A stretch of 64,000 nt of DNA from a virus (IMGVR_UViG_3300011008_000003); one strand, 5' to 3'. Counted from the first letter of the stretch, positions 40,703 through 58,554 are shown. Numbers and translations are program-made. Notes: generated from the letters alone by a model not told the origin.

Positions 40703-40739
40703 TGATTGATCCTTTGTTGATGTTTGTTTCAGTTAGTAT

Positions 40740-41480: not shown

Positions 41481-41483
41481 TTA

Positions 41484-42023: not shown

Positions 42024-42028
42024 TTGGT

Positions 42029-42541: not shown

Positions 42542-42570
42542 AATATAAAAAAGGATTGACATGTTGTCAA
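42542..42570 (-). promoter_or_regulatory. sigma70-like promoter TTGACA-N17-TATATT embedded in an inverted repeat
   Basis: On the minus strand TTGACA (42570-42565), a 17-nt spacer and TATATT (42547-42542) are read directly from the sequence. The palindrome ttgacatgttgtcaa also forms the stem of a terminator for the upstream minus-strand gene. Confidence 0.5.
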
Positions 42571-42598
42571 CCCCTTTTTTAAAGCAATTTATTAAAAA

Positions 42599-43375
42599 TT
42601 ACTTTTCGTAGCGTCCGCCAGCCTTCTGACGTTTAAAATTCTCACGGTTCTTTTCGTAATAGAATTTCCAGATGTCCTGCGGAGTCATGCCGAGCGCGAC
42701 ATAGAGCTTGATGAACTTGACCATAAGGGTATCGACCATATCGTAAAGGACAGTGTACGGAACCTTTGGTTCATAAGTTTCATAAGTCTTCCATGCCTTA
42801 TACGGCAATTGCTGCATAATCTGACCGAAAGCGATAATATAGTCACCAATCAGGAAACGAATAGAAGTTTCACCAATAGTACCAGCATGGAAATCTTCCT
42901 TGGCCTTATCATAGTACCATTCGAGAGTTTCACGTGGCTTCATATTGATGTAAAGCAACGTATTCATAAGGAAGTGAACTGCGTCAGTCAATTCGAAACG
43001 GCTATCGTCAGTAATTTCGTAATTATCCTTCTGCATCTGTTCATCGAGTTCAAAAAGCTCGGTTACGACACTACCAAGATGGTAGATAGACATTCCGGAC
43101 TTGACAAACAAATTTTCCTTAGAATCAGGAGTAAGAGTTCCACGCTTCTTACCGAGCATATTCTGCAGAGATTCCTGCATATCGAACATAACCTGAAGTG
43201 CATTAGCCGGATAATTTTCGTCAACATCCGGAATAACAATGTCATCATCAGTTTTTGCCGAACTAGTAATCTTATCAGCAACAATAGTAGCTTTTTCACG
43301 AAGTTTCTTCTGCAAAGTTGCAAAAGTATCAGCTTCTTCTACGACATTGCCGTACATGCTGTTAGTATCAATCAT
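42599..43375 (-). CDS. dCTPase-like all-alpha NTP pyrophosphohydrolase (T4 gp56/MazG-like)
   Basis: Blocks ALQVMFDMQESLQ, FELTDAVHFLMN and C-terminal IWKFYYEKNRENFKRQ match my recollection of T4 gp56 (PLQVMLDMQ, FELVDIFHFVLN, IFKLYYLKNKENFARQ). Not verified by a search. Confidence 0.45.
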   Translation of the reverse strand: MIDTNSMYGNVVEEADTFATLQKKLREKATIVADKITSSAKTDDDIVIPDVDENYPANALQVMFDMQESLQNMLGKKRGTLTPDSKENLFVKSGMSIYHLGSVVTELFELDEQMQKDNYEITDDSRFELTDAVHFLMNTLLYINMKPRETLEWYYDKAKEDFHAGTIGETSIRFLIGDYIIAFGQIMQQLPYKAWKTYETYEPKVPYTVLYDMVDTLMVKFIKLYVALGMTPQDIWKFYYEKNRENFKRQKAGGRYEK

Positions 43376-43376
43376 A

Positions 43377-43700
43377 TTAGTTTACCTTTTCCTTAGACTT
43401 CTTGGATTTCTTTACCGGAACTGCAGTATTAGCTACAGCGTCTTCCTGCGGAACAAGAGACTTGAGAACTTCAAGAATATTGCCGCATTCCTTCTTGAGC
43501 AAATCTTCATTTCGATCGTATTCTTCCTGAGTAAGACCAATCAAATCCTTGAGTAAAAATTCACGAGAGAAGAGAGGGGAAATACCAGAACTACCGTCGA
43601 CACGAGGAATAAACTGACTAAGAACGCCAAGGACGTCTGCAATTTCACGAGCACGGGTTAAATCTGCTTTTGTAGTTTTCTTTGTTGTAGTCTTTTTCAT
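43377..43700 (-). CDS. hypothetical protein
   Basis: 107 aa with a basic N-terminus. Confidence 0.35.
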   Translation of the reverse strand: MKKTTTKKTTKADLTRAREIADVLGVLSQFIPRVDGSSGISPLFSREFLLKDLIGLTQEEYDRNEDLLKKECGNILEVLKSLVPQEDAVANTAVPVKKSKKSKEKVN

Positions 43701-43775: not shown

Positions 43776-44900
43776 TTAGCTATTAGCAAGCTTTGCGAAG
43801 AAATCGTCTTCGTCTTCAGCGACAGCAGGCTGAGCGCTGGTCGACGGGCTTTCATCTTCATCGAACGGCATGCTAGGTGCGGTTTCGACTTCATTGAAGC
43901 TTACAGTAGGAGTAGACATCTTCTGCGGCTTACTTGCAGTACCGAAGATTTCGTCGTCATTGACAACGGTAGTCTGAATATTCATTGGAGCTGCAGACTT
44001 TGTAGTTGCTGCATAATCTTCAGAACCGTCAGCAAATTCTTCAAAAAGGTTCTTGCCAGACTTCTTGTTGTAAGATTCAACAATAGCATTGTAAGAACGA
44101 TACTTTTCCTTCGGAATTTCGATGTCCTTGAGGGTATAGAGCTGTGCGTCAACTGCATCGATTTCATCATCGGTCATATCATAGAGCTTGTCATCAGCGG
44201 CATGCTTGCAGATACGACGCGGGCTATTGAAGTGAGAAGTCTTGTAGCTCGGACCATTAGAATCCTGAATACCTTCCCAAACGAAGTTTGCACCAGCCTT
44301 TTCTTCACCACTGAGAACGCACTTGTCGTTCGGACCGTAGTAGGAGAACGGGTTGATACCCGGAATAATCTGACCGGTTTCATCATCCTTCTTATCAGCG
44401 ATAGCGTCAGTAATGAAACCCATAATTGCACGGCTATATTCGAGACGGAAAACCTTACCTTCAGTGTCCGGCTGGTTTTCGTTCTTCACAATATAGACGT
44501 TTGAGTAATACTTCGGCTTCCACTTACCGAGAACACGGTCACGAGCTTCCTTGGTCTTGCCGTACTTGTTCCAGACCTTGGAGTTATATTCGCAAATCGG
44601 ACACTTCAAGTCCTTGTCCTTGAACTTGCCGACGCAATCACAACCAAACCACTGGCCGTTTTCGAGCTGGAAGAGGTGAATACGGTTTTCAACCCAAGGA
44701 ATTTCGTCACCGTCACCGACCTTAGCCGGGAGGAAGCGAAGAATGACCTTGAACTTACCGTTCTTCATGAGAGGCTTAAAGAGGCCTTCGATTTCATAAC
44801 TCGGCTTTTCATCCTTATCCTTACGCTTATTGGCAGAACCAATTTCGTTAAGAGCCGAGTACATGCTGTTGAGACTATTTCTATTTCTTTGAATTGGCAT
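43776..44900 (-). CDS. single-stranded DNA-binding protein (T4 gp32-like)
   Basis: VILRFLPAK, EGKVFRLEY, Zn-site Cys cluster (CDC...CPIC), ANFVWEG and an acidic C-terminal tail. ATG at 44900 with AAGGAAAG RBS gives 51 aa before (I/V)LRFLP, the same spacing as in T4. The tracked ORF begins at an upstream TTG. Confidence 0.85.
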   Translation of the reverse strand: MPIQRNRNSLNSMYSALNEIGSANKRKDKDEKPSYEIEGLFKPLMKNGKFKVILRFLPAKVGDGDEIPWVENRIHLFQLENGQWFGCDCVGKFKDKDLKCPICEYNSKVWNKYGKTKEARDRVLGKWKPKYYSNVYIVKNENQPDTEGKVFRLEYSRAIMGFITDAIADKKDDETGQIIPGINPFSYYGPNDKCVLSGEEKAGANFVWEGIQDSNGPSYKTSHFNSPRRICKHAADDKLYDMTDDEIDAVDAQLYTLKDIEIPKEKYRSYNAIVESYNKKSGKNLFEEFADGSEDYAATTKSAAPMNIQTTVVNDDEIFGTASKPQKMSTPTVSFNEVETAPSMPFDEDESPSTSAQPAVAEDEDDFFAKLANS

Positions 44901-44959
44901 TTTATCTTTCCTTTGTAAATTCAATCGTACATTCGATTGTTGGTTTAAATATAGAAACT

Positions 44960-45991: not shown

Positions 45992-47338
45992 CTATAAATC
46001 GAATACGTTCACGTCTGGAGCCGGCTGTGGCGGTTCAGGCAGACTGTTAGAACCGAAATCTTCATCATTGTTGTTAAAAGACTTCAGGTCATAAATCTTC
46101 TGTTTTTCAATATCGACACCGATAGTTACAATCGGAGCCTTAGGCATACCATAACGAGTCTTAAGAAGCTTGACAGTATACATATCTGCAGCTTTCATTT
46201 CAGGTGTCTGTGTAACGCCGAAAATAGCGTCAGCCTTCATGGTCTGGCCGAATGAGTCAGCTGCGTCGTCAAGTCCCATTTCAGCCTTGCCATAACCACC
46301 GCGGTTAGCCTGCATAGCAGAAATAATCGGAATCTGTTCCACAAGACCGATAGAACGAACCTGAGCGGCGATTGCACGAAGCTTAGAGTTATCGTTCATA
46401 TTCGGGTCGACACGTCCATCCGGGACCATACATCCGATATAGTCAAGCATAATGACATCTGGATTAAAGTCATGCTTTTCTTTATATTCCTTGAGCAATG
46501 CCTTTAACTGGAGCGAGCTTACACAGTATTCTGGATATTCCTTAATCTTCAGCTTGTTATGACCAATCTGGCCTAACATCTTAGTAAACAAACGCATATA
46601 TGCTTCTTTATTCAAGGCCTTTAGTTCATTCTGTGTCTTGTCCATAAGATTCTGCATGATACGTTGACCGATTTTAACTTCCGGGTCTTCGAATGTAACA
46701 TACAAGACTCTCTTGCCAGCCAGAAGCATAGCAGAAGCCATGGAACAAAGGAACAAGGTTTTACCGATATTGGTCGGAGCCATGATAAGAGTCAATGACT
46801 GTTCGTGAACACCTCCGTGAATCATCTCGTCAAGTGTCTTACAGCCAGTAGGAATAACCTTTTCGTTGGTAACAAAATTATTATAGATTCGTTCTGGCTC
46901 TTCGAAGAACGAGAAACCAATCTGAGTATCGAAGGTAAAAGATTCAGCATACGCGACTTCTTCTGCGAAACTGCCAGTATGCTTGTTATTTACACAGTAG
47001 GTAGATATATTTTCTTGGATCTTGCGTAATAGACGTTTTCTGACGAAATCCTGTATTTCGTCAAGCATGAATTTCGTATTGACATCGCTATCTGGGATTG
47101 CCATACATTTGTTGAATGCGGCTACTGTTCTTTCGTCGGACAACAGCCTACGCATTTCAATGACATTGGGCATCGCAGAAAATCTTGCATTATAATCGCT
47201 TATAGCATTTACTATGTACTTATGATCTAGGTTTATAAACCAGTCGGAATTCAATTCCGGCACAACTTTTGAAGAAACGTCACTATTTGCGTAAAGTGCT
47301 TTGATTATTACTTGTTCGAATTCTATATCTGTAGTCAT
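45992..47338 (-). CDS. replicative DNA helicase (DnaB/T4 gp41-like)
   Basis: Walker A APTNIGKT, Walker B IMLDYIG and RecA-like C-terminal domain motifs. 448 aa. Confidence 0.85.
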   Translation of the reverse strand: MTTDIEFEQVIIKALYANSDVSSKVVPELNSDWFINLDHKYIVNAISDYNARFSAMPNVIEMRRLLSDERTVAAFNKCMAIPDSDVNTKFMLDEIQDFVRKRLLRKIQENISTYCVNNKHTGSFAEEVAYAESFTFDTQIGFSFFEEPERIYNNFVTNEKVIPTGCKTLDEMIHGGVHEQSLTLIMAPTNIGKTLFLCSMASAMLLAGKRVLYVTFEDPEVKIGQRIMQNLMDKTQNELKALNKEAYMRLFTKMLGQIGHNKLKIKEYPEYCVSSLQLKALLKEYKEKHDFNPDVIMLDYIGCMVPDGRVDPNMNDNSKLRAIAAQVRSIGLVEQIPIISAMQANRGGYGKAEMGLDDAADSFGQTMKADAIFGVTQTPEMKAADMYTVKLLKTRYGMPKAPIVTIGVDIEKQKIYDLKSFNNNDEDFGSNSLPEPPQPAPDVNVFDL

Positions 47339-47500: not shown

Positions 47501-48310
47501 ATGACCAGTGAAGTTGTTTTATTAGTGAAAACGTCATATTATCATGATACCGTAGAATGGATTGAATGGTATAAGAAGTTGGGATTCGACCATATAACCA
47601 TATATGACAATGAATCTACGATTGACTTCAATACAATAATAGCAAATTATTCAGATTATGTGACATATAATAAAATTGTTGGATTTCCTGACCAACTAAA
47701 TTTGGAATTACAACATTATAGACAGTGCAAGTATGATTATGTCTTTTTTGCAGATGCCGACGAGTTTTTATGGATAGATCCAAAATATAAAAATATAAAT
47801 GAATATCTCGATACAAAATGTCAGAATAATGACATTCATCAGCTGGCTATCTACTGGGTAAAAATTTCAGCAAATCCATGTCCAGAAGCACGTAAAGATA
47901 AACCAGAATCTACTCAAGTTAAAACTTTTAAATATGTTCAAGAAATCGAAAGCGAAAGCTGGATAAAATGTTTTTACAGAACCGGTTTAGATTTTATGTC
48001 TATGCATTGCCATTTCGCATTACCGTATGATAAAATGTATGATACTAATGGAAACTCGATAGTTTTACAAGATATTCGAAAGTGTAATTATAATTATAAT
48101 ATGGATGACGCCATTTTGTATCATTATTTCCATAAATCATGGGAAGAATTCAAAACCAAAATGCAATCCACTTATGCACCAATGAATACGACCTATAAAG
48201 AACTGTACCCGAAATATCAGTTTAAGACATATTATAATTATGCAAGACTGTTATATAGAATAGGATATAATACGTATGATAATAAAATCGAAAAATATCT
48301 CTATGCATAA
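47501..48310 (+). CDS. GT-A glycosyltransferase, GT92/DUF23-like (paralog 1)
   Basis: VEWIEWY...GFDHITIYDNES and DxD FFADADEFLW blocks; very AT-rich gene. Confidence 0.55.
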   Translation: MTSEVVLLVKTSYYHDTVEWIEWYKKLGFDHITIYDNESTIDFNTIIANYSDYVTYNKIVGFPDQLNLELQHYRQCKYDYVFFADADEFLWIDPKYKNINEYLDTKCQNNDIHQLAIYWVKISANPCPEARKDKPESTQVKTFKYVQEIESESWIKCFYRTGLDFMSMHCHFALPYDKMYDTNGNSIVLQDIRKCNYNYNMDDAILYHYFHKSWEEFKTKMQSTYAPMNTTYKELYPKYQFKTYYNYARLLYRIGYNTYDNKIEKYLYA

Positions 48311-49790
48311 TATCGATTATAATGCAATCAATATTCGCTATGAACACGAAGAACCGATTGACGATTACGTTAGTGCAGAAATTACTGAAAATGGAGAATT
48401 ACGATATTGGAATCATATTTTAAGTAAGGTATTTAAATCAGTAAAGAAAGCGCCAAAGATTGAGTTAAAATATTGTTATTATGAATGGTCAAATTGGATT
48501 GATGTATTATGCGGTATTATTCAAGATATTAACAAGATGAATTTTATTCCAAGGATAACAATTCACGTTTATGGGAATATTGAACCGCCGGATATTTTTT
48601 TAAAATATTTTACTGTAACAAAAATAAATAATGTAAAAATAGGTTATCGTGATATGATTATTAAAAGTAGTAATTTTACTAATGACTGGTATATTATACA
48701 AGAAACTCTGACTAGTGTTGATGAATTACTTTCAAAGTATAATAACACAGAAATACGAGATATTCCGTTTAAGTATGATTCTGAAATTTTGTTAATTACG
48801 AATTCAAGAAGATATAATTTTTCGGATTTGGTATATTGGATTTTTTATCATAAAAATGTATTGAAATTTGATAATATTGTGATTGTTCATAATAACAATG
48901 ACGATAAAGATGATCAGCTTGCATTGATGCAAATCTGTAAGTATTTCAATGTTGATTATTTTTATGAACCAGTTGGTTCACAGAAGTTAATTTTTAATAA
49001 GTATCAGAAACTTTCTGAAGCAAAGTGGATGATTTGTATTGATGAAGACGAATTCATTTATTTACCGGATAATATGACAATAAATGAATTGCTAAGCAAA
49101 TATAAAAATGAATATAAGTTAACTTTTGATATGATTAATTTTTATAGCGATGTAATGCTTAGAAATAAGAATAGCAAAACATTTCTTGAAAATTTCAGAT
49201 ATATTTGTCTTGATGATTCAAATAAAAATTTGATTTTCCAGAATGAAACAGATTCATATGCATTAACCCTGTATAAGACTTTTGTTAATAATAAGTTATT
49301 TCATTATTTGATAAACGCCACGAACTCTTTGGTTGATAGAACATTATTTAGTGTTAAGAATGAAAACAATAATAATATTGTTACATTAATTCCAGAGGAT
49401 AAAAAGGTTCTTCGTGCTTTTCATAAGCCTGAAATTGGACTTATTCATAATCCATTTACAATGTATAATAAAGAGATGATTAAGTCTTATAATTTAACGT
49501 CTAAGCTATATGTTAAATATTCATATGAATATGATAAACCGAATGTTTCTCTATTAAATAATCCATTTATAGCGCATTATAAATATAGAACTTTGGAAGA
49601 ATACGCCAATAAAGTTAAGTATAATAAGTTTATGGATGTAACAAGTTGCTATTATGATACAAACTATAAGCTTGATAAATTCTGTAACTTATATGAACAT
49701 AAGACATTCTTTAAGGTTGATAAGTTATATGAAAAATATTTGACCCATGTCAATGAATGGAATATTATAAGACATGAAATCAACTGGTAA
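48276..49790 (+). CDS. GT-A glycosyltransferase, GT92/DUF23-like with N-terminal extension (paralog 2)
   Basis: LVYWIFYHKNV...IVHNNND and DxD ICIDEDEFIY in the C-terminal half. Confidence 0.5.
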   Translation: MIIKSKNISMHNIDYNAINIRYEHEEPIDDYVSAEITENGELRYWNHILSKVFKSVKKAPKIELKYCYYEWSNWIDVLCGIIQDINKMNFIPRITIHVYGNIEPPDIFLKYFTVTKINNVKIGYRDMIIKSSNFTNDWYIIQETLTSVDELLSKYNNTEIRDIPFKYDSEILLITNSRRYNFSDLVYWIFYHKNVLKFDNIVIVHNNNDDKDDQLALMQICKYFNVDYFYEPVGSQKLIFNKYQKLSEAKWMICIDEDEFIYLPDNMTINELLSKYKNEYKLTFDMINFYSDVMLRNKNSKTFLENFRYICLDDSNKNLIFQNETDSYALTLYKTFVNNKLFHYLINATNSLVDRTLFSVKNENNNNIVTLIPEDKKVLRAFHKPEIGLIHNPFTMYNKEMIKSYNLTSKLYVKYSYEYDKPNVSLLNNPFIAHYKYRTLEEYANKVKYNKFMDVTSCYYDTNYKLDKFCNLYEHKTFFKVDKLYEKYLTHVNEWNIIRHEINW

Positions 49791-49801
49791 GGCTCTATAT
49801 T

Positions 49802-50851
49802 ATGATATTGAAAAACAAAAATTACAATATTAAAATTTTTGATAGTGATAGTTATAATAATTATGATTTTAACCAACCGATAGATAAAGAAAAACTATAC
49901 AATACAGAACTAATTTTAATAACGAATTCTAATAATCTGAACGAATTGTTATATTGGCTGTATTGGCATATAAATGTTATTGGTTTTGAACATGTTGTAT
50001 TAATTGATAATTCCAAAGAAAATTTAATCCGACCGTTTATTTCTAAATTTGGAAATTCAATAACATATGTCAAGAAACCTGGCGTAATATCACAATGTGA
50101 AATTTATAATTATTATGTAAAAAATTCAAAATCTAAATGGGTATTGCCATTAGATGATGATGAATATTTGTATATATCTGATAAATTTGACCATAGTATA
50201 AATACATTTATCAAAAAGAATGATTTACCTGTTTACAAATATGCTTTTAACTGGCATATGATGTTTAGTGATACTATAATTGAAAAGAATAATGATTTTT
50301 ATGTAAATCTGTATCAAAGGGAATGCCCGATCGATTATGTAACATTCGACTGTTTTTGGTGTATCAAAACAATGGTCAATACCGAAATCAATCACCTATA
50401 TGTTTCTGATAATGGGGAAATACCGTTTGAATTAAAGCTAAATAATCTCAATATGGATAAAAACTATAGACATACAGATTCTGGATTTTCATTATTCAAA
50501 GTAAATCATATGGGGTCTGTACATAATCCTATAAGTAAGCTGAATAATACTTTCATGCATGCCTATAATTATAATACAGACGATATGACTGTAGGTTTAT
50601 TCTGTAATAACAAGGATAGGAATAGAGATATTTATATTGCACATTATAAGTATAGAGATTTAGATAGTATAAAGTTTAAGATAAAGAATTTTCATTTTAC
50701 TGATATAATGAAACAATATATCAATGACGCCTATAATTTGGATAATTATTATAATGCATTCAATATTATAAGACCATCATTGGTAAAAAATGATGATTTA
50801 TACAATTTATCAAATGAATTTGATTTGGGAAATAAAGTAAAAGCTATATAA
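49802..50851 (+). CDS. GT-A glycosyltransferase, GT92/DUF23-like (paralog 3)
   Basis: LLYWLYWHINVIGFEHVVLIDNS and DxD LPLDDDEYLY. Confidence 0.5.
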   Translation: MILKNKNYNIKIFDSDSYNNYDFNQPIDKEKLYNTELILITNSNNLNELLYWLYWHINVIGFEHVVLIDNSKENLIRPFISKFGNSITYVKKPGVISQCEIYNYYVKNSKSKWVLPLDDDEYLYISDKFDHSINTFIKKNDLPVYKYAFNWHMMFSDTIIEKNNDFYVNLYQRECPIDYVTFDCFWCIKTMVNTEINHLYVSDNGEIPFELKLNNLNMDKNYRHTDSGFSLFKVNHMGSVHNPISKLNNTFMHAYNYNTDDMTVGLFCNNKDRNRDIYIAHYKYRDLDSIKFKIKNFHFTDIMKQYINDAYNLDNYYNAFNIIRPSLVKNDDLYNLSNEFDLGNKVKAI

Positions 50852-50864
50852 TTTTATATAGCTT

Positions 50865-51725
50865 TTATTTTAAATATTTGAGTGTAGAATCTACAGTTAA
50901 ATCTAACATATATGGAAACTGTTTAGATTTCGTTAAATAATCTTCAATATTAGAATCCATATAATAACGTTTATTGTTTATCAAATTTTGTTTAATCAAT
51001 GATGTTTTTATTTTATCATTATATTCATCAATCGTAGTTATTCTATAATGGTACAATCTTAAATAATAGTCATATATTGTTCTTGCAAACATTTTATGCC
51101 TATTGTCTATCTCAAAAACATCAGTAGTTGTTATTGTTTCAAAATTTTTAAGACCATGATGAACACTATCGAAATCATTATTGTCATATAATATAACCGG
51201 CTTCATTTCTATAAATGCAACATTTATACGAAATTTACAGAGATCATTATAATTCATATTTTCTGGTCTAGTAGCCAATAAATTTTTTGACATCATATTT
51301 GTCCACGGTACACCGAGTGAATGTGTTTTAAACTTAATGAAATCGTGCATCACGCATTCTTTAAACGAATTAAATTTAAAACTATCATACCACCAAAATT
51401 CATCAAAATCCGGAATAATAATTATATCATTTATATTAGGTTTTATAATATCAGATATTACAATATTATAATTGTCAATCTGATTAGTTTTTGAATACAA
51501 TTCATTTATTAATACAATATTATTATAATTTTTGATATAATCAGAAATATTAAGTTCACTATTGTCATTAAGAATTATAATCTTATCGCACTTGATAAAT
51601 TTTTCATACCAAGTTAACCACATGTTAAAATCAGCAGCATTAGTACCTTTTATGATAAGAATGGCATATAATTTTTGAATTTCTTTAGAAATTTTTATAT
51701 TTGTATTTTTATAGAATAAAGCCAT
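50865..51725 (-). CDS. GT-A glycosyltransferase, GT92/DUF23-like (paralog 4)
   Basis: NMWLTWYEKF...IIILNDNS and DxD IIPDFDEFWW. Confidence 0.5.
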   Translation of the reverse strand: MALFYKNTNIKISKEIQKLYAILIIKGTNAADFNMWLTWYEKFIKCDKIIILNDNSELNISDYIKNYNNIVLINELYSKTNQIDNYNIVISDIIKPNINDIIIIPDFDEFWWYDSFKFNSFKECVMHDFIKFKTHSLGVPWTNMMSKNLLATRPENMNYNDLCKFRINVAFIEMKPVILYDNNDFDSVHHGLKNFETITTTDVFEIDNRHKMFARTIYDYYLRLYHYRITTIDEYNDKIKTSLIKQNLINNKRYYMDSNIEDYLTKSKQFPYMLDLTVDSTLKYLK

Positions 51726-51726
51726 A

Positions 51727-52860
51727 TTAACAAGTAGTGAAAAATTTTTCTAAATTATTTATATAGTCTTGATAATTCTCTTTTTGATGAATAAAATTAT
51801 AATTTCGTTCCTGACTTTTTATATCAAGCACGTTATCAAAAATATTAGGATTCAAATCATCAATATTGAATATATCCGTATGTTTAGAATAATATTGATA
51901 GTTTATTCCGTCTAAAAATATTTTCTTACCGGTATAAAGCATATGGTTTATATTTCCAATTGCTTCTTGACGTAATTGTCCAAATATGGCGCAAGAACAA
52001 TTATCAATTAGCTTAAAGTATTCATATTTTCCGATATAGTTTTCGATAAATATCGGATTAACATACATTAAAGCTTTACAGAATTCTTTTATTTTATTTT
52101 TATATTTTTCTGAATCAAACTGTTCAAATTTTCCATTTGGATATGCCAATGGAATATATGCATTACATTTGATTTTTCTTTCTTCCAAAATATTTAAAAT
52201 ATCGATGTGATTGTTTGTCGGTAATAGACAGTGACCGACAAGAATATTATTATTCAAAGATTCATTAGGTACAAATTGAATATTTGCCTTTGGATCCATA
52301 TAATCAAATGGAAAAGGTTTTACATTTTGAAATTTTTTAGAAACTAATTCAAACTCATTCGGTAATACAGTCGAAATATACGAAATTTTATTTAAGAAAC
52401 TATCGTATTGCCATTGCTTTCTAAGAATTTTATTGTACAACCATTTAAACGGATATTTAACCTTATATAACAAATTGTTATTCATTACATTGGCATATTG
52501 GCGAGTCAAGGGCTTAAATAAATCTATATCGACCGCCATTTTTAAAATATCATTTTTGTCGGAGTATATGTCATAACCCCATGTTATTCCGATAATTTTA
52601 GGTTTTAGCTTTAACAGTTTATATTTGTGCTCTAAGAAATAAAGAGAATGGAAAATTACAAAATCAAATTCATTATCGTTAATATAATTGATTAAATCCG
52701 TTAAATTACGGTAGTTTTTTACTTTTGTATTTTTTATACAATTATATTTGTCATATTTTAGATTTGTAAAAAATTCAGATTTTATGTTTAAATGCGAAAA
52801 AATATCGATAGCCAAATCGATAAATTTTTCGTCTGGACATAAATGACAAATCTTTAACAT
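51727..52860 (-). CDS. WecF-like glycosyltransferase (GT56, 4-amino-deoxyhexose transferase family) candidate
   Basis: Blocks FVIFHSLYF, GITWGYDIY, ILVGHCLLPTNNHIDIL and CAIFGQLRQEAIGN resemble my recollection of E. coli WecF (FFFHGQF, WHIWGADLY, ILVGNSGDRSNEHIAAL, FIFARQQGIGT). Confidence 0.45.
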   Translation of the reverse strand: MLKICHLCPDEKFIDLAIDIFSHLNIKSEFFTNLKYDKYNCIKNTKVKNYRNLTDLINYINDNEFDFVIFHSLYFLEHKYKLLKLKPKIIGITWGYDIYSDKNDILKMAVDIDLFKPLTRQYANVMNNNLLYKVKYPFKWLYNKILRKQWQYDSFLNKISYISTVLPNEFELVSKKFQNVKPFPFDYMDPKANIQFVPNESLNNNILVGHCLLPTNNHIDILNILEERKIKCNAYIPLAYPNGKFEQFDSEKYKNKIKEFCKALMYVNPIFIENYIGKYEYFKLIDNCSCAIFGQLRQEAIGNINHMLYTGKKIFLDGINYQYYSKHTDIFNIDDLNPNIFDNVLDIKSQERNYNFIHQKENYQDYINNLEKFFTTC

Positions 52861-52863
52861 GGA

Positions 52864-53895
52864 TTAGTAAATATTGATTTTAGAAGTCTTTTTTAGAATT
52901 TCAATTATTGTCAGGATTTCTTCTTTAGTTTCATGATCCAATTCAATACCGTTCATAAATTCGTTCAATCTGAATTCAGTATCGGCAAAATTGAATATAA
53001 TTGCACTGAAATTATACGGTTCAATAAATGCAGGGAAGTTTATAATATCCTTGTAATTATATTTAGAAATAGTGTAGGTTGTTTCCAATTCTATACCATC
53101 TGTATCATGTAAGTTTTTCAGAAATTCAAGGCTTTCTAATAACATTTCCCATTTTGCACCTTTTCTAATTGTTTCAAACAATTCTTTACTAGATGCATCA
53201 ATAGAAATCTTTATAGACTTTATAAGCTTTCTGGTATTCGGGTGAATCTTATTCCATTGTTTCGGTAATAAAATAGCGTTCGTCATAAGCATAATTTCTT
53301 TTAATTCATGTCCGCTTAAATCACTCGACAGAATACTCATATAATTCTTACTAAACAATGCTTCACCATCGCCAGCGATATTTAATGAATGACAATGCTT
53401 GGCATATTCAATTACCTTATCATTAAATTCTTTTGGAATATCGACCTTAGTAATAACATCATCACGACATGTAATACAAGATAAATTGCAAGAAATATCA
53501 TATGCGACTTCAAACCTATAAGGATATGGTTCTGAAAAATCGCCGGTTTCAAATGCATCGACAATTTTCTGTCCATATTCGCCGAAATGGTCAACACAGT
53601 TTTTGGCAGTAAAGAATCTTTCATCTCTCTGAATAAAATTCGGACAATTCAGGCAATGAGAAAAATCATGATTTAAAATTTTCTTTCGAAATTCTCTAGC
53701 TTTTTTTGACTGAAAATATGTATCAAACTTATTAACATCGGGTTCACGATATTCTTCAACTCTGCTTTTATTTTCAATCCAATGTAAACAGCACGGGAAT
53801 AGTCCATCATGCTTCTTAATATTTAATCTTATAAATGGCAAATAGCAAATATGTCTATCTTTTAAGTTATATTTATCTGTCATAATTACATCCAA
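52864..53895 (-). CDS. radical SAM enzyme
   Basis: CNLSCITC (CxxxCxxC) plus additional N-terminal Cys-rich region CYLPF...CCLHW. Confidence 0.6.
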   Translation of the reverse strand: MDVIMTDKYNLKDRHICYLPFIRLNIKKHDGLFPCCLHWIENKSRVEEYREPDVNKFDTYFQSKKAREFRKKILNHDFSHCLNCPNFIQRDERFFTAKNCVDHFGEYGQKIVDAFETGDFSEPYPYRFEVAYDISCNLSCITCRDDVITKVDIPKEFNDKVIEYAKHCHSLNIAGDGEALFSKNYMSILSSDLSGHELKEIMLMTNAILLPKQWNKIHPNTRKLIKSIKISIDASSKELFETIRKGAKWEMLLESLEFLKNLHDTDGIELETTYTISKYNYKDIINFPAFIEPYNFSAIIFNFADTEFRLNEFMNGIELDHETKEEILTIIEILKKTSKINIY

Positions 53896-54650
53896 ACATC
53901 ATCACTCATCGGACTATATTTATAGCCTTTCTTAATGGCTTCTTCCAAAGATAAATCTTTAAATTCCTGAGCATAGAACCAACGCCCGCTTGTCTTATCA
54001 TCTATCAAAGCACCTACAAGTGCTCCTGGAATAACGCTTTCTACAGGATTCAAACCAGTATTATTATTAAATCCGGTTTTCAAAGAACCAGGGTCAAGAA
54101 CATTCATTATAACGTCAGTTCCGGTCAATTTATTGGCGTAATCTTTAACATATTTTTTCAATGCAGCCTTTGCACATGAATATGCGGCATATTCTGGCTG
54201 GTTAACTATTCCGCTAACAGTAAATTGAATCCTACCAAAACCTCTATTTATCATTCTGCCAAGAAAATGATATGCAATCTTTACAGGGGCGAAAAAGTTT
54301 ACCGCCATTGCATTATGAAAATCTTCCATAGTATTAGTCGTATAATCTTCAAAATACTGGCTTAGCATTCCAGCATTATTGAAAACAATGTCAACATTTA
54401 CGCCCAATGAATCTATTTTCTTAAGCATGTCGTCAATTTCAAATTCATTTTCTAAATGACAACCGTAAGAAATAGCTGTAATATTCGGATTTATTGTATA
54501 AAGTTCTTTCAATACAGTGTCAGCATTTTCCTGTGTTCTCGCCTGGATAATTATATTTGCGCTAAGCTTTGCCATTTCATGAGCAATAAGTCTTCCAACA
54601 CCACGAGAACCACCAGTAATCAATACATATTTGTTTTTTACATCAATCAT
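53886..54650 (-). CDS. short-chain dehydrogenase/reductase (SDR)
   Basis: TGGSRGVG cofactor-binding motif and YSCAK (YxxxK) catalytic motif. Confidence 0.85.
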   Translation of the reverse strand: MIDVKNKYVLITGGSRGVGRLIAHEMAKLSANIIIQARTQENADTVLKELYTINPNITAISYGCHLENEFEIDDMLKKIDSLGVNVDIVFNNAGMLSQYFEDYTTNTMEDFHNAMAVNFFAPVKIAYHFLGRMINRGFGRIQFTVSGIVNQPEYAAYSCAKAALKKYVKDYANKLTGTDVIMNVLDPGSLKTGFNNNTGLNPVESVIPGALVGALIDDKTSGRWFYAQEFKDLSLEEAIKKGYKYSPMSDDVWM

Positions 54651-55567
54651 AGAGTATATCTTTTGATTAAAATTTGTTCAGTTACACTAATTTGATTATC
54701 TATCGGCAAGTTATTAAAACAGTTCATGTGATTACTTATCATATCATATCCTGTAGTAAGCGAAAATGCAACGCCTGCAGAGAAACGAGAATTAATATCG
54801 ATAAGATAATAGTTATCACCGTTGTGAATGAATTCCATACATAAAGAACCGTTTATATTCAATTTATTTCCGATATAAGAAACAATAGAAGCCAGTTTCT
54901 TATCATCGAACATTTTGACAGTTAATCCCGCTCCATTGCTTGTTCTGATAAGTTCTTCACGCATGACCATAGAATCTTTATTATCTTTGGCGGAACGGCA
55001 ATAATCAACCGTACAAACATTACCCTTGACATATTGCTGAACAATATACTTATATGGATTATTAAGAACCATTAATTGTTCAAATTCGGGCTTTATCAAT
55101 AAACCTTGGCTACTACGGCCATTTATCAATTTCGCTACGACCGTATTATATCTGATTTTATAATCCAATAATTTCCATGTAGTCGGAACAGTAACCATGT
55201 CGTCATGTTCAAAATACTTATAGAGCTCATACTTATTTCTGATAATCTTAAGTATATCATCTTCAGGCATACATAATGTAATTCCAGCGAATTGATTTCT
55301 ATTTCTGTTTATGACGTCGATTTCTAAATCGGTCAAAGGTACGATATATTTAATATCATGCTTCTTGCATGTATCAATAAGGAAATTACAGTATTTTTCC
55401 TCTTCGTCCGCATAAGGCGATTGATAAAAATAATCGCAGAGCGTACTTTCATAATGCCAATCTTTTGGATATATGTCACAACCGACAACAAGATTGTCAG
55501 AATTATTTAATTGCGTAATTACGCATTCGGCAGACATTGAACCTATTGCTGTTACTAAGATATTCAT
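54647..55567 (-). CDS. ATP-grasp ligase
   Basis: MNILVTAIGS N-terminal Rossmann-like start, central ATP-grasp fold and LIDINSRFSAG motif. Start taken at the internal Met. Confidence 0.65.
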   Translation of the reverse strand: MNILVTAIGSMSAECVITQLNNSDNLVVGCDIYPKDWHYESTLCDYFYQSPYADEEEKYCNFLIDTCKKHDIKYIVPLTDLEIDVINRNRNQFAGITLCMPEDDILKIIRNKYELYKYFEHDDMVTVPTTWKLLDYKIRYNTVVAKLINGRSSQGLLIKPEFEQLMVLNNPYKYIVQQYVKGNVCTVDYCRSAKDNKDSMVMREELIRTSNGAGLTVKMFDDKKLASIVSYIGNKLNINGSLCMEFIHNGDNYYLIDINSRFSAGVAFSLTTGYDMISNHMNCFNNLPIDNQISVTEQILIKRYTL

Positions 55568-55671
55568 GTACGTAAATATAGAAAATTTTATGATTTTTGT
55601 AAAAAACTTAATATTTTTCAAATTTTTTACTATTATTGTATTTGAATATAAATATTTATGCTTGAGGTTAT

Positions 55672-56583
55672 ATGCTGGTTGTAAAGAAAGAAAAAGACCT
55701 TGTTAAGTCAAAACATATATTAGACGTACTTGATAGATATAAAAAAGTTTTTAATTGCGATTGTAATATTAAATATCCGCAAAAATTTACCGAGAAAATG
55801 CAATGGCTTAAGGTATATGATAATAACCCGTTAAAGACATACTGTTCTGATAAAATAAATCTCAGAAATTATTGTAAGGACATATTGGGTCAAGATATAT
55901 GTCCAAAAATATATTCAGTATATGGTAACGTTTCAAGAATTGATATTGCATCGGTTCCAAAAATTTGTGTTATAAAATGTAATCATGGCAGTGGATATAA
56001 TATTGTACTGAACAATAGGAGTTTAACTCCACAAGATATGGAAACATTGGAAAGATGGTATCAGACAGATTTTTCAACCGTCGCACAGGAAAGCCATTAT
56101 AAAGCAATAAATCATAAGATTTTTACAGAAGAACTATTGAATATTGAATGCGAATATAAAGTCTGGTGTTTTCATGGAATGCCGAAATTTACCCAATGTA
56201 TTTTTTATGATAATCTTGGAAATACATTGTATAAACCTGACCCGGCATATAGAAGAATTTGGTCTCGCCATGATGCATTAATCAATACTGAATTTGAATT
56301 GATAAAGGGATGGCAGTTTAATATCGGTCGTCCGAGCTATAACGAAAATAAATACTTAAAACATTATTATAAAAGATATTGCAGGACCGAATATTATAAT
56401 ATGCTATTAAGATATTCAAAAATGCTTTCTGAAAAATTTAATTTTGTAAGGGTTGATTTTTATAAAACATTTGATAATAAGATTTATCTGTCAGAATTAA
56501 CTTTTATTCCTTCTGCCGGATTTATGCATTTCAATAGTGAACATACAGATTATCAAATTGGAAAATTGTTAAATATAGGTTAA
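55672..56583 (+). CDS. TupA-like ATP-grasp protein (PF14305-like)
   Basis: N-terminal FTEKMQWLKVYDNNPLKTYCSDKINLRNY resembles the TupA-like family consensus as I recall it. Confidence 0.4.
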   Translation: MLVVKKEKDLVKSKHILDVLDRYKKVFNCDCNIKYPQKFTEKMQWLKVYDNNPLKTYCSDKINLRNYCKDILGQDICPKIYSVYGNVSRIDIASVPKICVIKCNHGSGYNIVLNNRSLTPQDMETLERWYQTDFSTVAQESHYKAINHKIFTEELLNIECEYKVWCFHGMPKFTQCIFYDNLGNTLYKPDPAYRRIWSRHDALINTEFELIKGWQFNIGRPSYNENKYLKHYYKRYCRTEYYNMLLRYSKMLSEKFNFVRVDFYKTFDNKIYLSELTFIPSAGFMHFNSEHTDYQIGKLLNIG

Positions 56584-56587
56584 GATT

Positions 56588-57520
56588 ATGTTAATAAAAC
56601 ACGCGAAAAAGATAATAATGGATTGTGCATTGCCGACAGATACCTTGATTGTTCGTCTATTGGATCCTACTCATATCGCAGTTGCACATTGCGGGCAAAG
56701 AGAGAAAGAACTTGTTAACCCATTGAGTTTCGATGAAGTCTATGCTATGTCTTCAGATGATTTCTGGGAATATTTGCAAGATTCATATAAGAAAATTCCA
56801 GAAAATCATAAATGGGAACCAGATTATTATTGCTATACCAAAAATAAGATATGTATGTATAATGATAAATATGTCAAGAAAGTTATAATCTCGACATCTA
56901 AGCATTGTAATAATCTTTGTAAGATGTGTATGGTTTCATCAAATACATATCTAAATACGGAAACCGATAAAAAACTATATTTTAGTATTTTGGAGAAACT
57001 GAAAGGACATGGAATTTTCGAAATAGGCCTTACTCATAATGGCGAGCCGTTTTTGTATAAGAAAGAAGCTTTCGATTACATGGAATCATTAAAAGCAAAA
57101 ATTGACTGTACACAAATTTGTATAACTTCCAATACTTCGCTTCTTAACAGTGACGATATACAACGATTAAAACGTATAAAAGATATTCAGGGAATCGACA
57201 TGTTCTTTATGGCTTCATGTAGTGCTATTACGGCAGAAACCTATAAACAAGTACATGGCACACCATATTTTGAAACCGTAAAAAATAATATTCTCGAACT
57301 TAATAAAAATAATATATTATCCTGTATAAGTTTTGTGATTCAAAGAGAAAATATTCATGAACTTGAATTTCTAAAAGATTATTGGTATTCTCAAGGCGTA
57401 ACTGTTCCGTTATATGCCAGAATCCTCGTTGGGTTTGACGGTGCCGAAATTGCAAAAATGCCGGAATATCAGAGATTTTTACAAGTTCGTGAAAAACTGG
57501 GTCCAGAAATATTTAAATGA
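56588..57520 (+). CDS. radical SAM enzyme
   Basis: CNNLCKMC CxxxCxxC cluster in the first third of the protein. Confidence 0.6.
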   Translation: MLIKHAKKIIMDCALPTDTLIVRLLDPTHIAVAHCGQREKELVNPLSFDEVYAMSSDDFWEYLQDSYKKIPENHKWEPDYYCYTKNKICMYNDKYVKKVIISTSKHCNNLCKMCMVSSNTYLNTETDKKLYFSILEKLKGHGIFEIGLTHNGEPFLYKKEAFDYMESLKAKIDCTQICITSNTSLLNSDDIQRLKRIKDIQGIDMFFMASCSAITAETYKQVHGTPYFETVKNNILELNKNNILSCISFVIQRENIHELEFLKDYWYSQGVTVPLYARILVGFDGAEIAKMPEYQRFLQVREKLGPEIFK

Positions 57521-58554
57521 TAACTGTAACTAAACCTAAATTACCGAATCTATCAGAATTAATGCCGATGTTGGAAAACATCTGGCATTCTGGTATTATA
57601 ACGAACAACGGTTCATATTGCAAAGAATTTGAACAAAGATTATCAGAATATCTCGATACTCCGTATGTTTCCGTTGTATCTAATGCCACAAACGGCTTAT
57701 TATTAGCCCTGAAGGCCTTAAATATATCAGGGGATGTAGTTACTAGCCCATACAGTTTTGCGGCCACAGAGAACGTTTTACGCTGGTTAAATCTCAATCC
57801 GATAATGGTCGACACCGATGAGCTCGGTAATATAGATCCGGATAAGATTGAACAGGCAATAACGAAGAATACTACGGCAATTCTGCCTATTCACGTATAT
57901 GGAAGACCGTGTGATACAGAAAAAATTCAGAATATAGCAAATAAGTATAATCTGAAAGTTATTTACGATGCAGCACATGTTTTTGGTGTCAAGGTTGATT
58001 TCGGTGATGTCAGTGTCATAAGCATGCATGCGACGAAGGTATTCAATACATGTGAAGGCGGAATTGTAATATCTAAAACAGCGGAAATAAAAAAGAAAAT
58101 TGACTTACTCCGTAATTTTGGGATAGAGGATGAAGAAACTGTAAGCGAATACGGAATCAATGCGAAACTGGATGAAATACGAGCCGCGATTGGTATATTG
58201 AATCTAAAAACAATAGATTCAGATATTATGGAACGTAAAGCAATTTTCGAAAAATATAGAACTGGTTTAAAAGATGTTCCAGGAATAAGAACCTTGGACA
58301 ATAGTTATAACGGTTCTTATTTTCCGATATTCATTGACGAAAAATTATACGGACATAATAGAGATTATCTTTATGAAATGTTTAAATCGGAAGGAATACT
58401 GGCAAGAAAATATTTTTACCCGATTCGATATAAACTTGAAATATCGTCCAGGCTTTCAAATACGGTTTTGTGTTTACCGATATATCCAGGTCTTGAAGAT
58501 ATAACGATTGAAAAGATTGTGAATCTAATTCATAACATTAGAAAAACGGATTGA
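57517..58554 (+). CDS. DegT/DnrJ/EryC1/StrS-family PLP-dependent sugar aminotransferase (WecE-like)
   Basis: SPYSFAATENV, IHVYGRPCD, DAAHVFG and the PLP-lysine context SMHATKVFNTCEGG. Confidence 0.85.
   Translation: MITVTKPKLPNLSELMPMLENIWHSGIITNNGSYCKEFEQRLSEYLDTPYVSVVSNATNGLLLALKALNISGDVVTSPYSFAATENVLRWLNLNPIMVDTDELGNIDPDKIEQAITKNTTAILPIHVYGRPCDTEKIQNIANKYNLKVIYDAAHVFGVKVDFGDVSVISMHATKVFNTCEGGIVISKTAEIKKKIDLLRNFGIEDEETVSEYGINAKLDEIRAAIGILNLKTIDSDIMERKAIFEKYRTGLKDVPGIRTLDNSYNGSYFPIFIDEKLYGHNRDYLYEMFKSEGILARKYFYPIRYKLEISSRLSNTVLCLPIYPGLEDITIEKIVNLIHNIRKTD

What the first reader, a model, noticed from the sequence alone, without database searches (positions are those of the whole stretch)
42599..43375. 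gp56-like dCTPase in the replication module implies a non-canonical cytosine in the genome
The protein has the all-alpha NTP-PPase metal-binding helices and a C-terminal KFYYEKNRENFKRQ block that matches my recollection of T4 dCTPase. Phages carry this enzyme when dCTP must be excluded from DNA (hydroxymethyl-dC or other modified dC). Taken together with the adjacent glycosyltransferase-rich locus, this favours the DNA-hypermodification reading of that locus.
Basis: partly seen in the sequence, partly recalled or inferred. Interest (0 to 1): 0.55.

Follow-up and report, generated by a model that had tools for sequence, protein, structure and literature searches.

The report
Phage gp56-type dimeric dUTPase/dCTPase gene
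This gene encodes an intact deoxypyrimidine-triphosphate-cleaving enzyme related to phage T4 gp56, sitting in a T4-like replication operon, but such enzymes also occur in T4 relatives that lack the hydroxymethylcytosine genes, so it does not show that this phage has unusual cytosine.

Summary

The inference does not hold. The same triad occurs in gp56 alleles of Krischvirus (RB49-like), Pseudotevenvirus and Slopekvirus, which lack gene 42. Published surveys place gene 56 in nearly all T4 relatives but gene 42 in only a subset. No gp42, beta-gt or Dam homologue was found in the window or in relatives' loci (145 kb in total).

The 11-kb sugar island is a low-GC insertion missing from two related phages that keep the gp32-small ORF-dUTPase_2 module. 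Its content looks like sugar-nucleotide and glycan biosynthesis.

The most likely role is a replication-linked dUTP/dUDP (possibly also dCTP) pyrophosphatase. Modified cytosine is not excluded, because most of the genome (probably more than 200 kb) was not visible. This is an ordinary finding: a divergent new member of a known family.

The parts
42599..43375 (-). Gene for a 258-aa dimeric all-alpha dUTPase/dCTPase-family protein (gp56-type)
43310..43375 (-). Nearly invariant N-terminal peptide MIDTNSMYGNVxEExDxFxxxQ (residues 1-22). The adjoining variable K/A/E-rich linker (residues 23-55) lies at 43211-43309.
   Evidence: Alignment of 20 long-form homologues. AlphaFold2 pLDDT below 50 for residues 1-15 and 32-43. 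Absent from the 211-aa clade. A role as a docking motif is inferred, not shown.
43151..43201 (-). Motif I, the base-reading helix ALQVMFDMQESLQNMLG (residues 59-75), with triad Q67 / Q71 / G75
   Evidence: Aligns to gp56 residues 30-51 and to C. jejuni Gln14/Asn18/Asn22, the uracil site (PMC2954211; sequence verified). Q67 and Q71 are invariant.
43019..43063 (-). Motif II metal ligands E106xxE109, followed by a reduced motif III (K116-D117-N118)
   Evidence: Invariant columns in A1. The E109-to-K116 spacing equals the C. jejuni E49-to-W56/K57 spacing (sequence). The motif III assignment is inferred.
42962..42997 (-). Motif IV, FELTDAVHFLMN: metal ligands E128 and D131, and the H134-F135 deoxyribose sandwich
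   Evidence: Aligned by HMMER to C. jejuni NVRIEIVDIWHF. Role of the His-Phe pair from PMC5608427. Invariant in A1.
42680..42949 (-). Insert of about 90 residues (143-232) between motifs IV and V. It contains a degenerate repeat of the motif IV/V helices and an invariant Y192-K193-x-W195-K196. T4 gp56 has no such insert.
   Evidence: Two segments of the query (110-162 and 196-253) align to the same C-terminal part of gp56. The single gp56 stretch maps to two separated regions of C. jejuni dUTPase. Helices H151-164, H172-187 and H207-227 in the model.
42626..42667 (-). Motif V, KFYYEKNRENFKRQ: K242, N246, R249 (phosphate and 3'-OH binding)
   Evidence: Aligns to C. jejuni K175/N179/R182 and phiDI K154/N158/R161. 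Invariant in A1.
43377..43700 (-). Conserved 107-aa ORF of unknown function, coupled to the dUTPase_2 gene (its stop TAA, one base, then ATG)
   Evidence: Sequence. Same position and similar size in L004 (105 aa) and L016 (115 aa). No Pfam or PHROG hit.
43776..44900 (-). T4 gp32-type single-stranded DNA-binding protein, upstream in the same transcription unit
   Evidence: PF08804 gp32 on the called gene in L001. ORF. The start codon is uncertain (TTG at 44924 or ATG at 44900).
45992..47338 (-). DnaB-type replicative helicase, first recognisable gene of the unit
   Evidence: PF03796 DnaB_C.
42547..42579 (-). 15-bp hairpin with flanking A and U tracts just after the stop codon (terminator-like), overlapping a TTGACA-17-TATATT promoter-like site (42542-42570) for the next genes
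   Evidence: RNA fold -16.8 kcal/mol, z = -4.8, 0 of 200 shuffles as stable. Promoter scan 11 of 12 matches. Function is inferred.
47501..58554 (.). Context, not part of the feature: an 11-kb low-GC sugar/glycan island. It holds four GT2/GT92-like genes, a WecF-like transferase, two radical SAM genes, an SDR, two ATP-grasp genes and a DegT aminotransferase.
   Evidence: Pfam and NCBIfam hits. GC 24-33% against 36-44% elsewhere. Absent from the corresponding place in L004 and L016.

Best explanation
The gene encodes a catalytically intact homodimeric all-alpha deoxypyrimidine nucleotide pyrophosphatase of the dUTPase_2 family (PF08761). Mg2+ ions held by E106, E109, E128 and D131 activate water to cleave dUTP and dUDP to dUMP. 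H134/F135 and N246 select deoxyribose. K242 and R249 hold the phosphates. Q67 and Q71 read the pyrimidine.

The base-reading helix is of the T4 gp56 type, so some dCTP/dCDP hydrolysis is plausible. The overall architecture, however, is that of the long cellular dimeric dUTPases.

The gene is the last one of a conserved T4-like replication operon (DnaB, gp32, small ORF, this gene). It most likely provides the phage's dUTPase function during DNA synthesis: it keeps uracil out of DNA and feeds dUMP (and possibly dCMP) into thymidylate synthesis. On its own it says nothing about cytosine modification.

Shown here: family, fold, motif conservation and synteny. Inferred: substrate, dimer state and physiological role.
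For: - All five motifs are invariant in 30 homologues spanning 45-88% identity. Their roles come from PMC5608427 and PMC2954211.
- gp56 is the nearest characterised relative: 30 bits, against 6 bits or less for the C. jejuni fragments. The two proteins share PHROG 173.
- The Q-Q-small triad is shared with gp56 alleles from phages both with and without gene 42.
- Gene 56 is a quasi-core gene that supplies the 'essential dUTPase function' in T4 relatives, and it is much more widespread than gene 42 (PMC2993671). The RB49 locus confirms this.
- The operon gp32-small ORF-dUTPase_2 is conserved in phages whose proteins are 80% and 50% identical. A terminator-like hairpin follows the gene.
- No gp42, beta-gt or Dam homologue in 145 kb of window plus relatives' loci.
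Against: - No biochemical data exist for this subfamily.
- The uracil-specific Asn residues of validated dUTPases (C. jejuni Asn18 and Asn22) are replaced by Gln and Gly, as in the bifunctional T4 enzyme. Specificity therefore cannot be read from sequence, and substantial dCTPase activity is possible.
- The 64-kb window is probably less than a third of the genome, so a dCMP hydroxymethylase, or a second (trimeric) dUTPase, could lie elsewhere.
- The nearly invariant N-terminal peptide and the coupled small ORF hint at interactions that this explanation does not account for.
Confidence: 0.65

Rival explanations
1. It is a true gp56-like dCTPase/dUTPase working in a cytosine-replacement pathway. 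It destroys dCTP and supplies dCMP to a hydroxymethylase (or another C5-modifying enzyme) encoded outside the window, so that the genome contains a non-canonical cytosine. The sugar island might then decorate that base.
For: - T4 gp56 is the closest characterised relative.
- The base-reading triad is Q-Q-small as in gp56, not Q-N-N/D as in strict dUTPases.
- The phage is T4-like (gp32, UvsW, UvsX, UvsY, Gp23, NrdD/G).
- Most of the genome was not visible.
- The island contains four GT2-like transferases with unknown acceptors.
Against: - The same triad occurs in gp56 alleles of RB49-like, RB43-like and KP15-like phages, which lack gene 42.
- No gp42, beta-gt or Dam homologue in 145 kb examined.
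- The island is absent from two relatives that retain the gene.
- The island includes a WecF-like lipid-linked-sugar transferase, a TupA-like ATP-grasp and a DegT aminotransferase, which is typical of glycan synthesis.
- The protein's architecture differs from gp56 (258 aa with an insert, against 171 aa).
Confidence: 0.15
2. It is a pyrophosphatase with a different target, for example dTTP (to support thymidine replacement or hypermodification) or an aberrant or modified dNTP ('house-cleaning'), rather than dUTP or dCTP.
For: Structural relatives in the viral library include proteins from phages that, as far as I recall, have thymine hypermodification (PhiW-14; the ViI-like phiMAM1) or uracil DNA (AR9). 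The all-alpha NTP-PPase superfamily has varied specificities (PMC2954211). Radical SAM, PLP-dependent and ATP-grasp enzymes in the nearby island are enzyme types that, from my own recollection (not checked here), also occur in thymidine-hypermodification clusters.
Against: Those BFVD matches are weak (E 0.01-0.2, 11-16% identity), whereas the match to gp56 motifs I and V is strong. No dUMP hydroxymethylase or 5-hmdU kinase homologue was seen in the window. The island is not conserved alongside the gene.
Confidence: 0.07
3. Its main selected role is not catalytic but regulatory or structural, for example tethered to the replisome or acting as a signalling protein (as proposed for S. aureus phage dimeric Duts), with the N-terminal peptide and the coupled small ORF as interaction partners.
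For: The N-terminal 22 residues are more conserved than the catalytic core, and a variable linker follows them. A small ORF is translationally coupled in three lineages. There is a precedent for moonlighting dimeric Duts (PMC5608427).
Against: Every catalytic residue is invariant across the family, which argues that catalysis is under selection. The 211-aa clade lacks the N-terminal peptide altogether. This reading adds to the enzymatic role rather than replacing it.
Confidence: 0.05

Closest known systems
Phage T4 gp56 dCTPase-dUTPase (and its alleles in Straboviridae)
   Same: Closest characterised relative by sequence (BLASTP 2e-9; phmmer 30 bits; HHalign 96%). Same PHROG 173. Motif I is nearly identical (LQVMxDMQxxLQxxL), with the Q-Q-small base-reading triad. 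Motif V is KxYYxKNxxNFxRQ. The His-Phe sugar sandwich is present. Both genes lie among T4-type replication genes.
   Different: gp56 is a compact 171-aa 'basic module' in which motif IV runs straight into motif V. The window protein is 258 aa, with an insert of about 90 residues between these motifs, a reduced motif III (KDN instead of WKKWK) and a 55-residue N-terminal extension. gp56 only just passes PF08761 (25.4 bits, C-terminal 33 residues), whereas this protein matches end to end. tblastn against 50,697 GenBank phage records found no match.
Campylobacter jejuni dimeric dUTPase (PDB 1W2Y/2CIC), and trypanosomatid dimeric dUTPases
   Different: The uracil-reading residues Asn18 and Asn22 (Asn/Asp in trypanosomatids) are Gln71 and Gly75 here. 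The WKxWK motif III is not conserved in place. Sequence similarity is marginal (profile E = 7e-4).
Staphylococcus aureus phage dimeric Duts (phiDI, phiNM1; PDB 5MYD, 5MIL)
   Different: They lack the His of the His-Phe pair (Ala73 instead) and have Q/D in motif I. Their variable 'motif VI' region is unrelated to the insert here. The window protein keeps His134.

Membership tests
Dimeric all-alpha dUTPase/dCTPase family (Pfam PF08761 dUTPase_2) | Scores above the curated Pfam gathering threshold | tested here: met
   44.4 bits against a cutoff of 22.9; residues 60-253 match profile positions 2-161 of 162.
Dimeric all-alpha dUTPase/dCTPase family (Pfam PF08761 dUTPase_2) | All-alpha fold superposable on solved dimeric dUTPases | tested here: met
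Dimeric all-alpha dUTPase/dCTPase family (Pfam PF08761 dUTPase_2) | Four acidic Mg2+ ligands in motifs II (ExxE) and IV (ExxD) | tested here: met
   E106, E109, E128 and D131 are invariant in 30 homologues. Motif IV is aligned by HMMER to C. jejuni E74/D77.
Dimeric all-alpha dUTPase/dCTPase family (Pfam PF08761 dUTPase_2) | Deoxyribose selection: the His-Phe pair after motif IV and the Asn of motif V | tested here: met
   H134, F135 and N246 are invariant. Roles from PMC5608427 and PMC2954211 (Asn179).
Dimeric all-alpha dUTPase/dCTPase family (Pfam PF08761 dUTPase_2) | Uracil-recognition residues of strict dUTPases (C. jejuni Gln14, Asn18, Asn22) | tested here: not met
   The window protein has Q67, Q71 and G75. 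Only the first residue is conserved. The protein is therefore filed under the family, but not as a proven strict dUTPase.
Dimeric all-alpha dUTPase/dCTPase family (Pfam PF08761 dUTPase_2) | Homodimer with hydrolysis of dUTP and dUDP | not testable with these tools
   No multimer prediction or enzyme assay is available.
T4 gp56-type dCTPase-dUTPase | Significant sequence similarity to T4 gp56 | tested here: met
   BLASTP 2e-9; HHalign 96.4%; phmmer 30 bits with motif I and motif V both aligned; shared phrog_173. The similarity is local (motifs I and V).
T4 gp56-type dCTPase-dUTPase | Motif I triad Gln-Gln-small (Q39/Q43/A47 in T4) | tested here: met
   Q67/Q71/G75. The two Gln are invariant in T4, Tulanevirus, Krischvirus, Pseudotevenvirus, Slopekvirus, Geobacillus phage GR1 and three members of this family.
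T4 gp56-type dCTPase-dUTPase | Compact architecture of about 170 aa with motif IV directly followed by motif V | tested here: not met
   258 aa with an insert of about 90 residues and an N-terminal extension. gp56 and RB49 gp56 match only part of PF08761. The protein is therefore not an orthologue-grade member of this group, but a related subfamily.
T4 gp56-type dCTPase-dUTPase | dCTP/dCDP hydrolysis | not testable with these tools
   Needs an enzyme assay. The sequence triad does not discriminate, because it also occurs in phages without gene 42.
T4-type cytosine replacement system (hydroxymethylcytosine, with or without glycosylation) | dCMP hydroxymethylase (gp42, a thymidylate-synthase homologue) | tested here: not met
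   No tblastn or phmmer hit in the window, nor in 145 kb of window plus relatives' loci.
T4-type cytosine replacement system (hydroxymethylcytosine, with or without glycosylation) | DNA glucosyltransferase of the T4 beta-gt type | tested here: not met
   No tblastn hit for T4 beta-gt at E <= 0.1. The island's transferases are GT2/GT92-like and WecF-like. T4 alpha-gt was not tested.
T4-type cytosine replacement system (hydroxymethylcytosine, with or without glycosylation) | dNMP kinase (gp1), Alc and DenB | not tested
   Reference sequences were not fetched. PHROG and Pfam scans of most window genes returned nothing with such annotations.
MazG (PF03819) / trimeric dUTPase (PF00692) | Pfam match | tested here: not met
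   Only PF08761 was reported at E <= 1, apart from one sub-threshold chance hit.

The most novel reading that the evidence does not exclude
This uncultured T4-like phage, probably a jumbo phage, replaces cytosine with a modified base. In this reading the long-form gp56-like enzyme clears dCTP, an unseen hydroxymethylase elsewhere in the genome makes the modified precursor, and the lineage-specific sugar island supplies an unusual amino- or acyl-sugar that its GT2-like transferases attach to DNA. That would be a new DNA hypermodification.
Probability: 0.1. Interest if true: 0.65.

Novelty: new member of a known kind. Interest (0 to 1): 0.2.

Why it matters
The result corrects an attractive shortcut: a gp56 homologue is not a marker for modified cytosine. 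Gene 56 is quasi-core in T4 relatives and serves as their dUTPase, and the gp56-type base-reading residues also occur in phages that lack gene 42. Scans that flag DNA hypermodification should instead require the base-modifying enzyme itself (a thymidylate-synthase-family hydroxymethylase or similar).

The protein also documents a divergent long-form subfamily. It combines gp56-type motifs I and V with a classical dimeric-dUTPase architecture and a nearly invariant N-terminal peptide. It is found only in metagenomic contigs (up to 427 kb) and in none of 50,697 GenBank phage records. That makes it a reasonable target for biochemical study of how dUTP versus dCTP specificity is set in this family.

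Tried and rejected
1. Restriction-site avoidance as evidence against modified cytosine. The window is strongly depleted in GATC (56 observed, 195 expected, z = -12) and has no GATATC (0 against 31). An 18-kb stretch of T4 itself, an hmC-glucosylated phage, shows the same pattern (GATC 20 against 56.8; GATATC 0 against 6.6). The argument does not discriminate and was dropped.

2. The Q-Q-small base-reading triad as a dCTPase marker. It separates gp56-type proteins from validated dUTPases, but it is equally present in gp56 alleles of lineages without gene 42. It is a clade signature, not a marker of cytosine replacement.

3. PHROG, NCBIfam and Pfam labels. PHROG 173 holds both T4 gp56 and this protein. 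NCBIfam has no model for it. PF08761 covers both dUTPases and gp56. None of them resolves substrate.

5. Extending the view of the genome. Exact-protein look-ups for two window genes found nothing. Look-ups for the end genes reached only short contigs, showing Gp23 and scaffold protein on the left and UvsX on the right. The rest of the genome could not be read.

6. Megablast and tblastn against GenBank phages found no relatives.

7. The L. major structural paper (PMC3091252) is not held. The base-contact residues were taken from PMC2954211 instead.

I did not run it: the output would be dominated by T-even and bacterial thymidylate synthases, and a negative result would say nothing.

Full report
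**The observation**

The ORF reported at 42599-43375 exists on the minus strand, from ATG to stop, and encodes 258 aa. It ends with ...DIWKFYYEKNRENFKRQKAGGRYEK. T4 gene 56, read from NC_000866, ends with ...EIFKLYYLKNKHNFERQDNGY.

BLASTP of the two proteins gives E = 2e-9 over the C-terminal 58 residues. A second internal segment of the window protein (110-162) aligns to the same part of gp56. Seventy-five homologues, all from metagenomes and nearly all carrying PF08761, were found in the large protein collection, some on contigs of 185-427 kb. This is a real, conserved gene and not a chance ORF. The overlapping plus-strand ORFs are shadows.

**What it is**

- Pfam gives one significant family, PF08761 dUTPase_2: 44.4 bits against a cutoff of 22.9, covering residues 60-253 and profile positions 2-161 of 162.
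- PHROGs gives phrog_173, 'nucleoside triphosphate pyrophosphohydrolase'.
- An AlphaFold2 model built on 30 homologues is confident for residues 50-255 (pLDDT above 90) and all-helical. The first 55 residues are low confidence.
- Foldseek was too insensitive for this helical fold.

In an alignment of 30 homologues (45-88% identical to the window protein), the following residues are invariant:

- Q67 and Q71 (motif I)
- E106 and E109 (motif II)
- K116 and D117
- E128, D131, H134 and F135 (motif IV)
- Y192, K193 and W195
- Y239, K242, N243, N246, R249 and Q250 (motif V)

The literature assigns these positions as follows. The four acidic residues bind Mg2+. The His-Phe pair sandwiches the deoxyribose. 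The motif V Lys, Asn and Arg bind phosphates and the 3'-OH (PMC5608427; PMC2954211). The enzyme is therefore very likely active on deoxynucleotides.

**How gp56-like is it?**

By sequence, T4 gp56 is the nearest characterised relative: phmmer gives 30 bits, against 5.6 and 3.3 bits for the two verified C. jejuni fragments. HHalign gives 96.4% probability. T4 gp56 falls in the same PHROG.

Motif I is strikingly similar: window ALQVMFDMQESLQNMLG against T4 PLQVMLDMQRFLQIRLA.

The architecture differs. In gp56 (171 aa) the ExxDxxHF helix runs directly into the KNxxNxxRQ helix. In the window protein, as in C. jejuni dUTPase, roughly 90 residues lie between them. These contain a degenerate copy of the same helix pair. 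The window protein also has a 55-residue N-terminal extension. T4 and RB49 gp56 only just pass PF08761 with partial matches (25.4 and 24.8 bits), whereas the window protein matches end to end.

It is best described as a long-form subfamily that combines gp56-type motifs I and V with the classical dimeric-dUTPase layout. tblastn against 50,697 GenBank phage records found no match.

**Can the substrate be read from the sequence?**

PMC2954211 states that C. jejuni dUTPase reads uracil with Gln14, Asn18 and Asn22. I verified the sequences of the validated dUTPases against the PDB and compared the three positions:

| Protein(s) | Base-reading positions |
|---|---|
| C. jejuni dUTPase | Q / N / N |
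| L. major, T. cruzi, T. brucei dUTPases | Q / N / D |
| phiDI Dut | Q / D |
| T4 gp56 | Q39 / Q43 / A47 |
| Window protein | Q67 / Q71 / G75 |

The window protein therefore shares the gp56 pattern.

I tested it by aligning gp56 alleles from lineages with and without the hydroxymethylcytosine pathway. The lineages were Tulanevirus (gene 42 present), Krischvirus (RB49-like), Pseudotevenvirus (RB43-like), Slopekvirus (KP15-like) and Geobacillus phage GR1. All have Gln-Gln-small. The triad is a signature of the phage gp56-type clade as a whole and does not mark cytosine replacement. It leaves dCTPase activity possible but unproven.

**Does a gp56 homologue imply modified cytosine?**

It does not.

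- Petrov et al. 2010 (PMC2993671, Table 4) list gene 42, denB and alc only in T-even, JS98, RB69, CC31, Acinetobacter phages and some Aeromonas phages.
- The same table lists gene 56 in all sequenced T4 relatives except Aeh1, 65, KVP40 and nt-1. [quoted passage not shown] One sentence of the running text groups gene 56 with the genes that many relatives lack, which is inconsistent with Table 4. My own searches agree with the table.
- My tblastn searches fit this picture. gp56 homologues occur in 1,448 records and gp42-like sequences in 1,504 (the latter including thymidylate-synthase cross-hits). Klebsiella phages number 276 against 147, and Escherichia phages 614 against 514.
- In RB49, gene 56 is annotated at 9490-10008. 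uvsX is followed by a 62-aa ORF and then gene 43, with no beta-gt, gene 42 or imm. gp42 finds nothing in the first 50 kb, while gp56 hits at 5e-51. Only this first 50 kb of RB49 was searched directly.
- For KP15-like phages, no hydroxymethyltransferase or glycosyltransferase was found, and KP15 DNA is digestible (PMC5219037). A Slopekvirus nevertheless carries a gp56 homologue.
- Within the window, neither tblastn nor phmmer finds a gp42 homologue. gp42, beta-gt, Dam and Imm find nothing in 145 kb comprising the window, its short flanks and relatives' loci.

**Genomic context**

The gene is the last in a minus-strand unit: DnaB-type helicase (45992-47338), two small ORFs, gp32 (43776-44900), a 107-aa ORF (43377-43700) whose TAA is separated from the ATG by one base, and then the dUTPase_2 gene. 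A 15-bp hairpin with A and U tracts follows (-16.8 kcal/mol, z = -4.8).

The order UvsW-UvsX-DnaB-x-x-gp32-small ORF-dUTPase_2 is conserved in a phage whose protein is 80% identical (L016, 169-kb contig). It is also conserved in one whose protein is 50% identical (L004, 297-kb contig). A more distant 211-aa clade sits near a dCMP deaminase and an RNase H (L006).

The rest of the window is T4-like:

- Gp23-type capsid protein, prohead protease and terminase
- baseplate proteins
- UvsY and a Nudix hydrolase
- NrdD/NrdG
- a primase-like protein and an exonuclease

**The glycosyltransferase locus**

The region 47501-58554 encodes:

- four GT2/GT92-like proteins
- a WecF-like transferase (NF002756, 1e-18)
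- two radical SAM proteins
- a short-chain dehydrogenase
- two ATP-grasp enzymes (PylC-like and TupA-like)
- a DegT-family aminotransferase

Its GC content is 24-33%, against 36-44% elsewhere. In both related phages the same replication module is contiguous and has no such island. In the window the island sits beside an inverted DHH-UvsW-UvsX segment. It is therefore a lineage-specific insertion at a rearrangement point.

Its content is typical of sugar-nucleotide and glycan synthesis. That does not exclude a DNA target. It does remove the argument that proximity to the gp56-like gene favours DNA hypermodification.

**A rejected argument**

The window is strongly depleted in GATC and lacks GATATC. 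I first read this as a sign of unprotected DNA. T4 itself shows the same depletion, so this says nothing about cytosine modification.

**Verdict**

The most likely function is the replication-linked dUTP/dUDP pyrophosphatase of a T4-like phage, possibly with dCTPase activity (confidence 0.65). A true cytosine-replacement role remains possible (about 0.15), because most of the genome was not visible.

This is a divergent new member of a known family and of low general interest. Two details may deserve follow-up: the nearly invariant N-terminal peptide and the coupled small ORF.

Noticed in passing
window 43211-43375 (minus strand; residues 1-55 of the gp56-like protein): The first 22 residues (MIDTNSMYGNVxEExDxFxxxQ) are nearly invariant in all 20 long-form homologues, even where the catalytic core is only about 50% identical. 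A variable-length, low-confidence K/A/E-rich linker follows them. The 211-aa clade lacks the whole extension. It looks like a tethered docking peptide with an unknown partner.
   Followed up: partly
window 43377-43700 (minus strand): A 107-aa ORF with no Pfam or PHROG match lies between gp32 and the gp56-like gene. Its stop codon is one base from the next ATG. An ORF of 105-115 aa occupies the same place in two related phages (L004, L016). It may be a partner or regulator.
   Followed up: partly
window 47501-58554: An 11-kb low-GC (24-33%) sugar/glycan island lies between the DnaB-type helicase gene and an inverted DHH-UvsW segment. It holds GT2/GT92-like, WecF-like, radical SAM, SDR, ATP-grasp and DegT genes. 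It is absent from related phages. It shares the GATC and GATATC depletion of the rest of the genome despite its different GC content.
   Followed up: partly
whole window; also L004, L005 and T4 (L002): There is strong depletion of GATC (observed/expected 0.29, z = -12), complete absence of GATATC (0 against 31 expected), and depletion of AGTACT and CGTACG. The same GATC and GATATC pattern is seen in an 18-kb T4 segment. The short-clade locus L006 is instead depleted in TCGA and GGCC.
   Followed up: partly
window 19292-19582 (plus strand): A 96-aa PQ-loop (SemiSWEET-like) membrane protein gene sits between the anaerobic ribonucleotide reductase gene nrdD (16752-19223) and an unannotated 252-aa ORF that precedes the activase gene nrdG (20337-20837).
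   Followed up: no
window 26822-27622 (minus strand): A 266-aa ORF begins MKFNIIGNPPYNGKG (an NPPY motif, as in N6-adenine/N4-cytosine DNA methyltransferases). It hits only PHROG 11371 (unknown function) and no Pfam or NCBIfam model. It may be a divergent DNA methyltransferase.
   Followed up: no
window 39071-42511 (minus strand): Directly downstream of the replication unit, behind its own near-consensus promoter, lie genes for membrane-associated proteins: a 160-aa ORF, a LemA-family protein, a 246-aa ORF matching phrog_3886 (function unknown) and a 543-aa Band_7/flotillin protein. That is an unusual set for a phage. The Band_7 gene is also present in L004.
   Followed up: no
window 42547-42579 (minus strand): A 15-bp perfect hairpin flanked by A and U tracts (possibly a bidirectional terminator) overlaps the -35 element of a TTGACA-17-TATATT promoter-like site. 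Termination of the replication operon and initiation of the next unit may therefore be coupled.
   Followed up: partly
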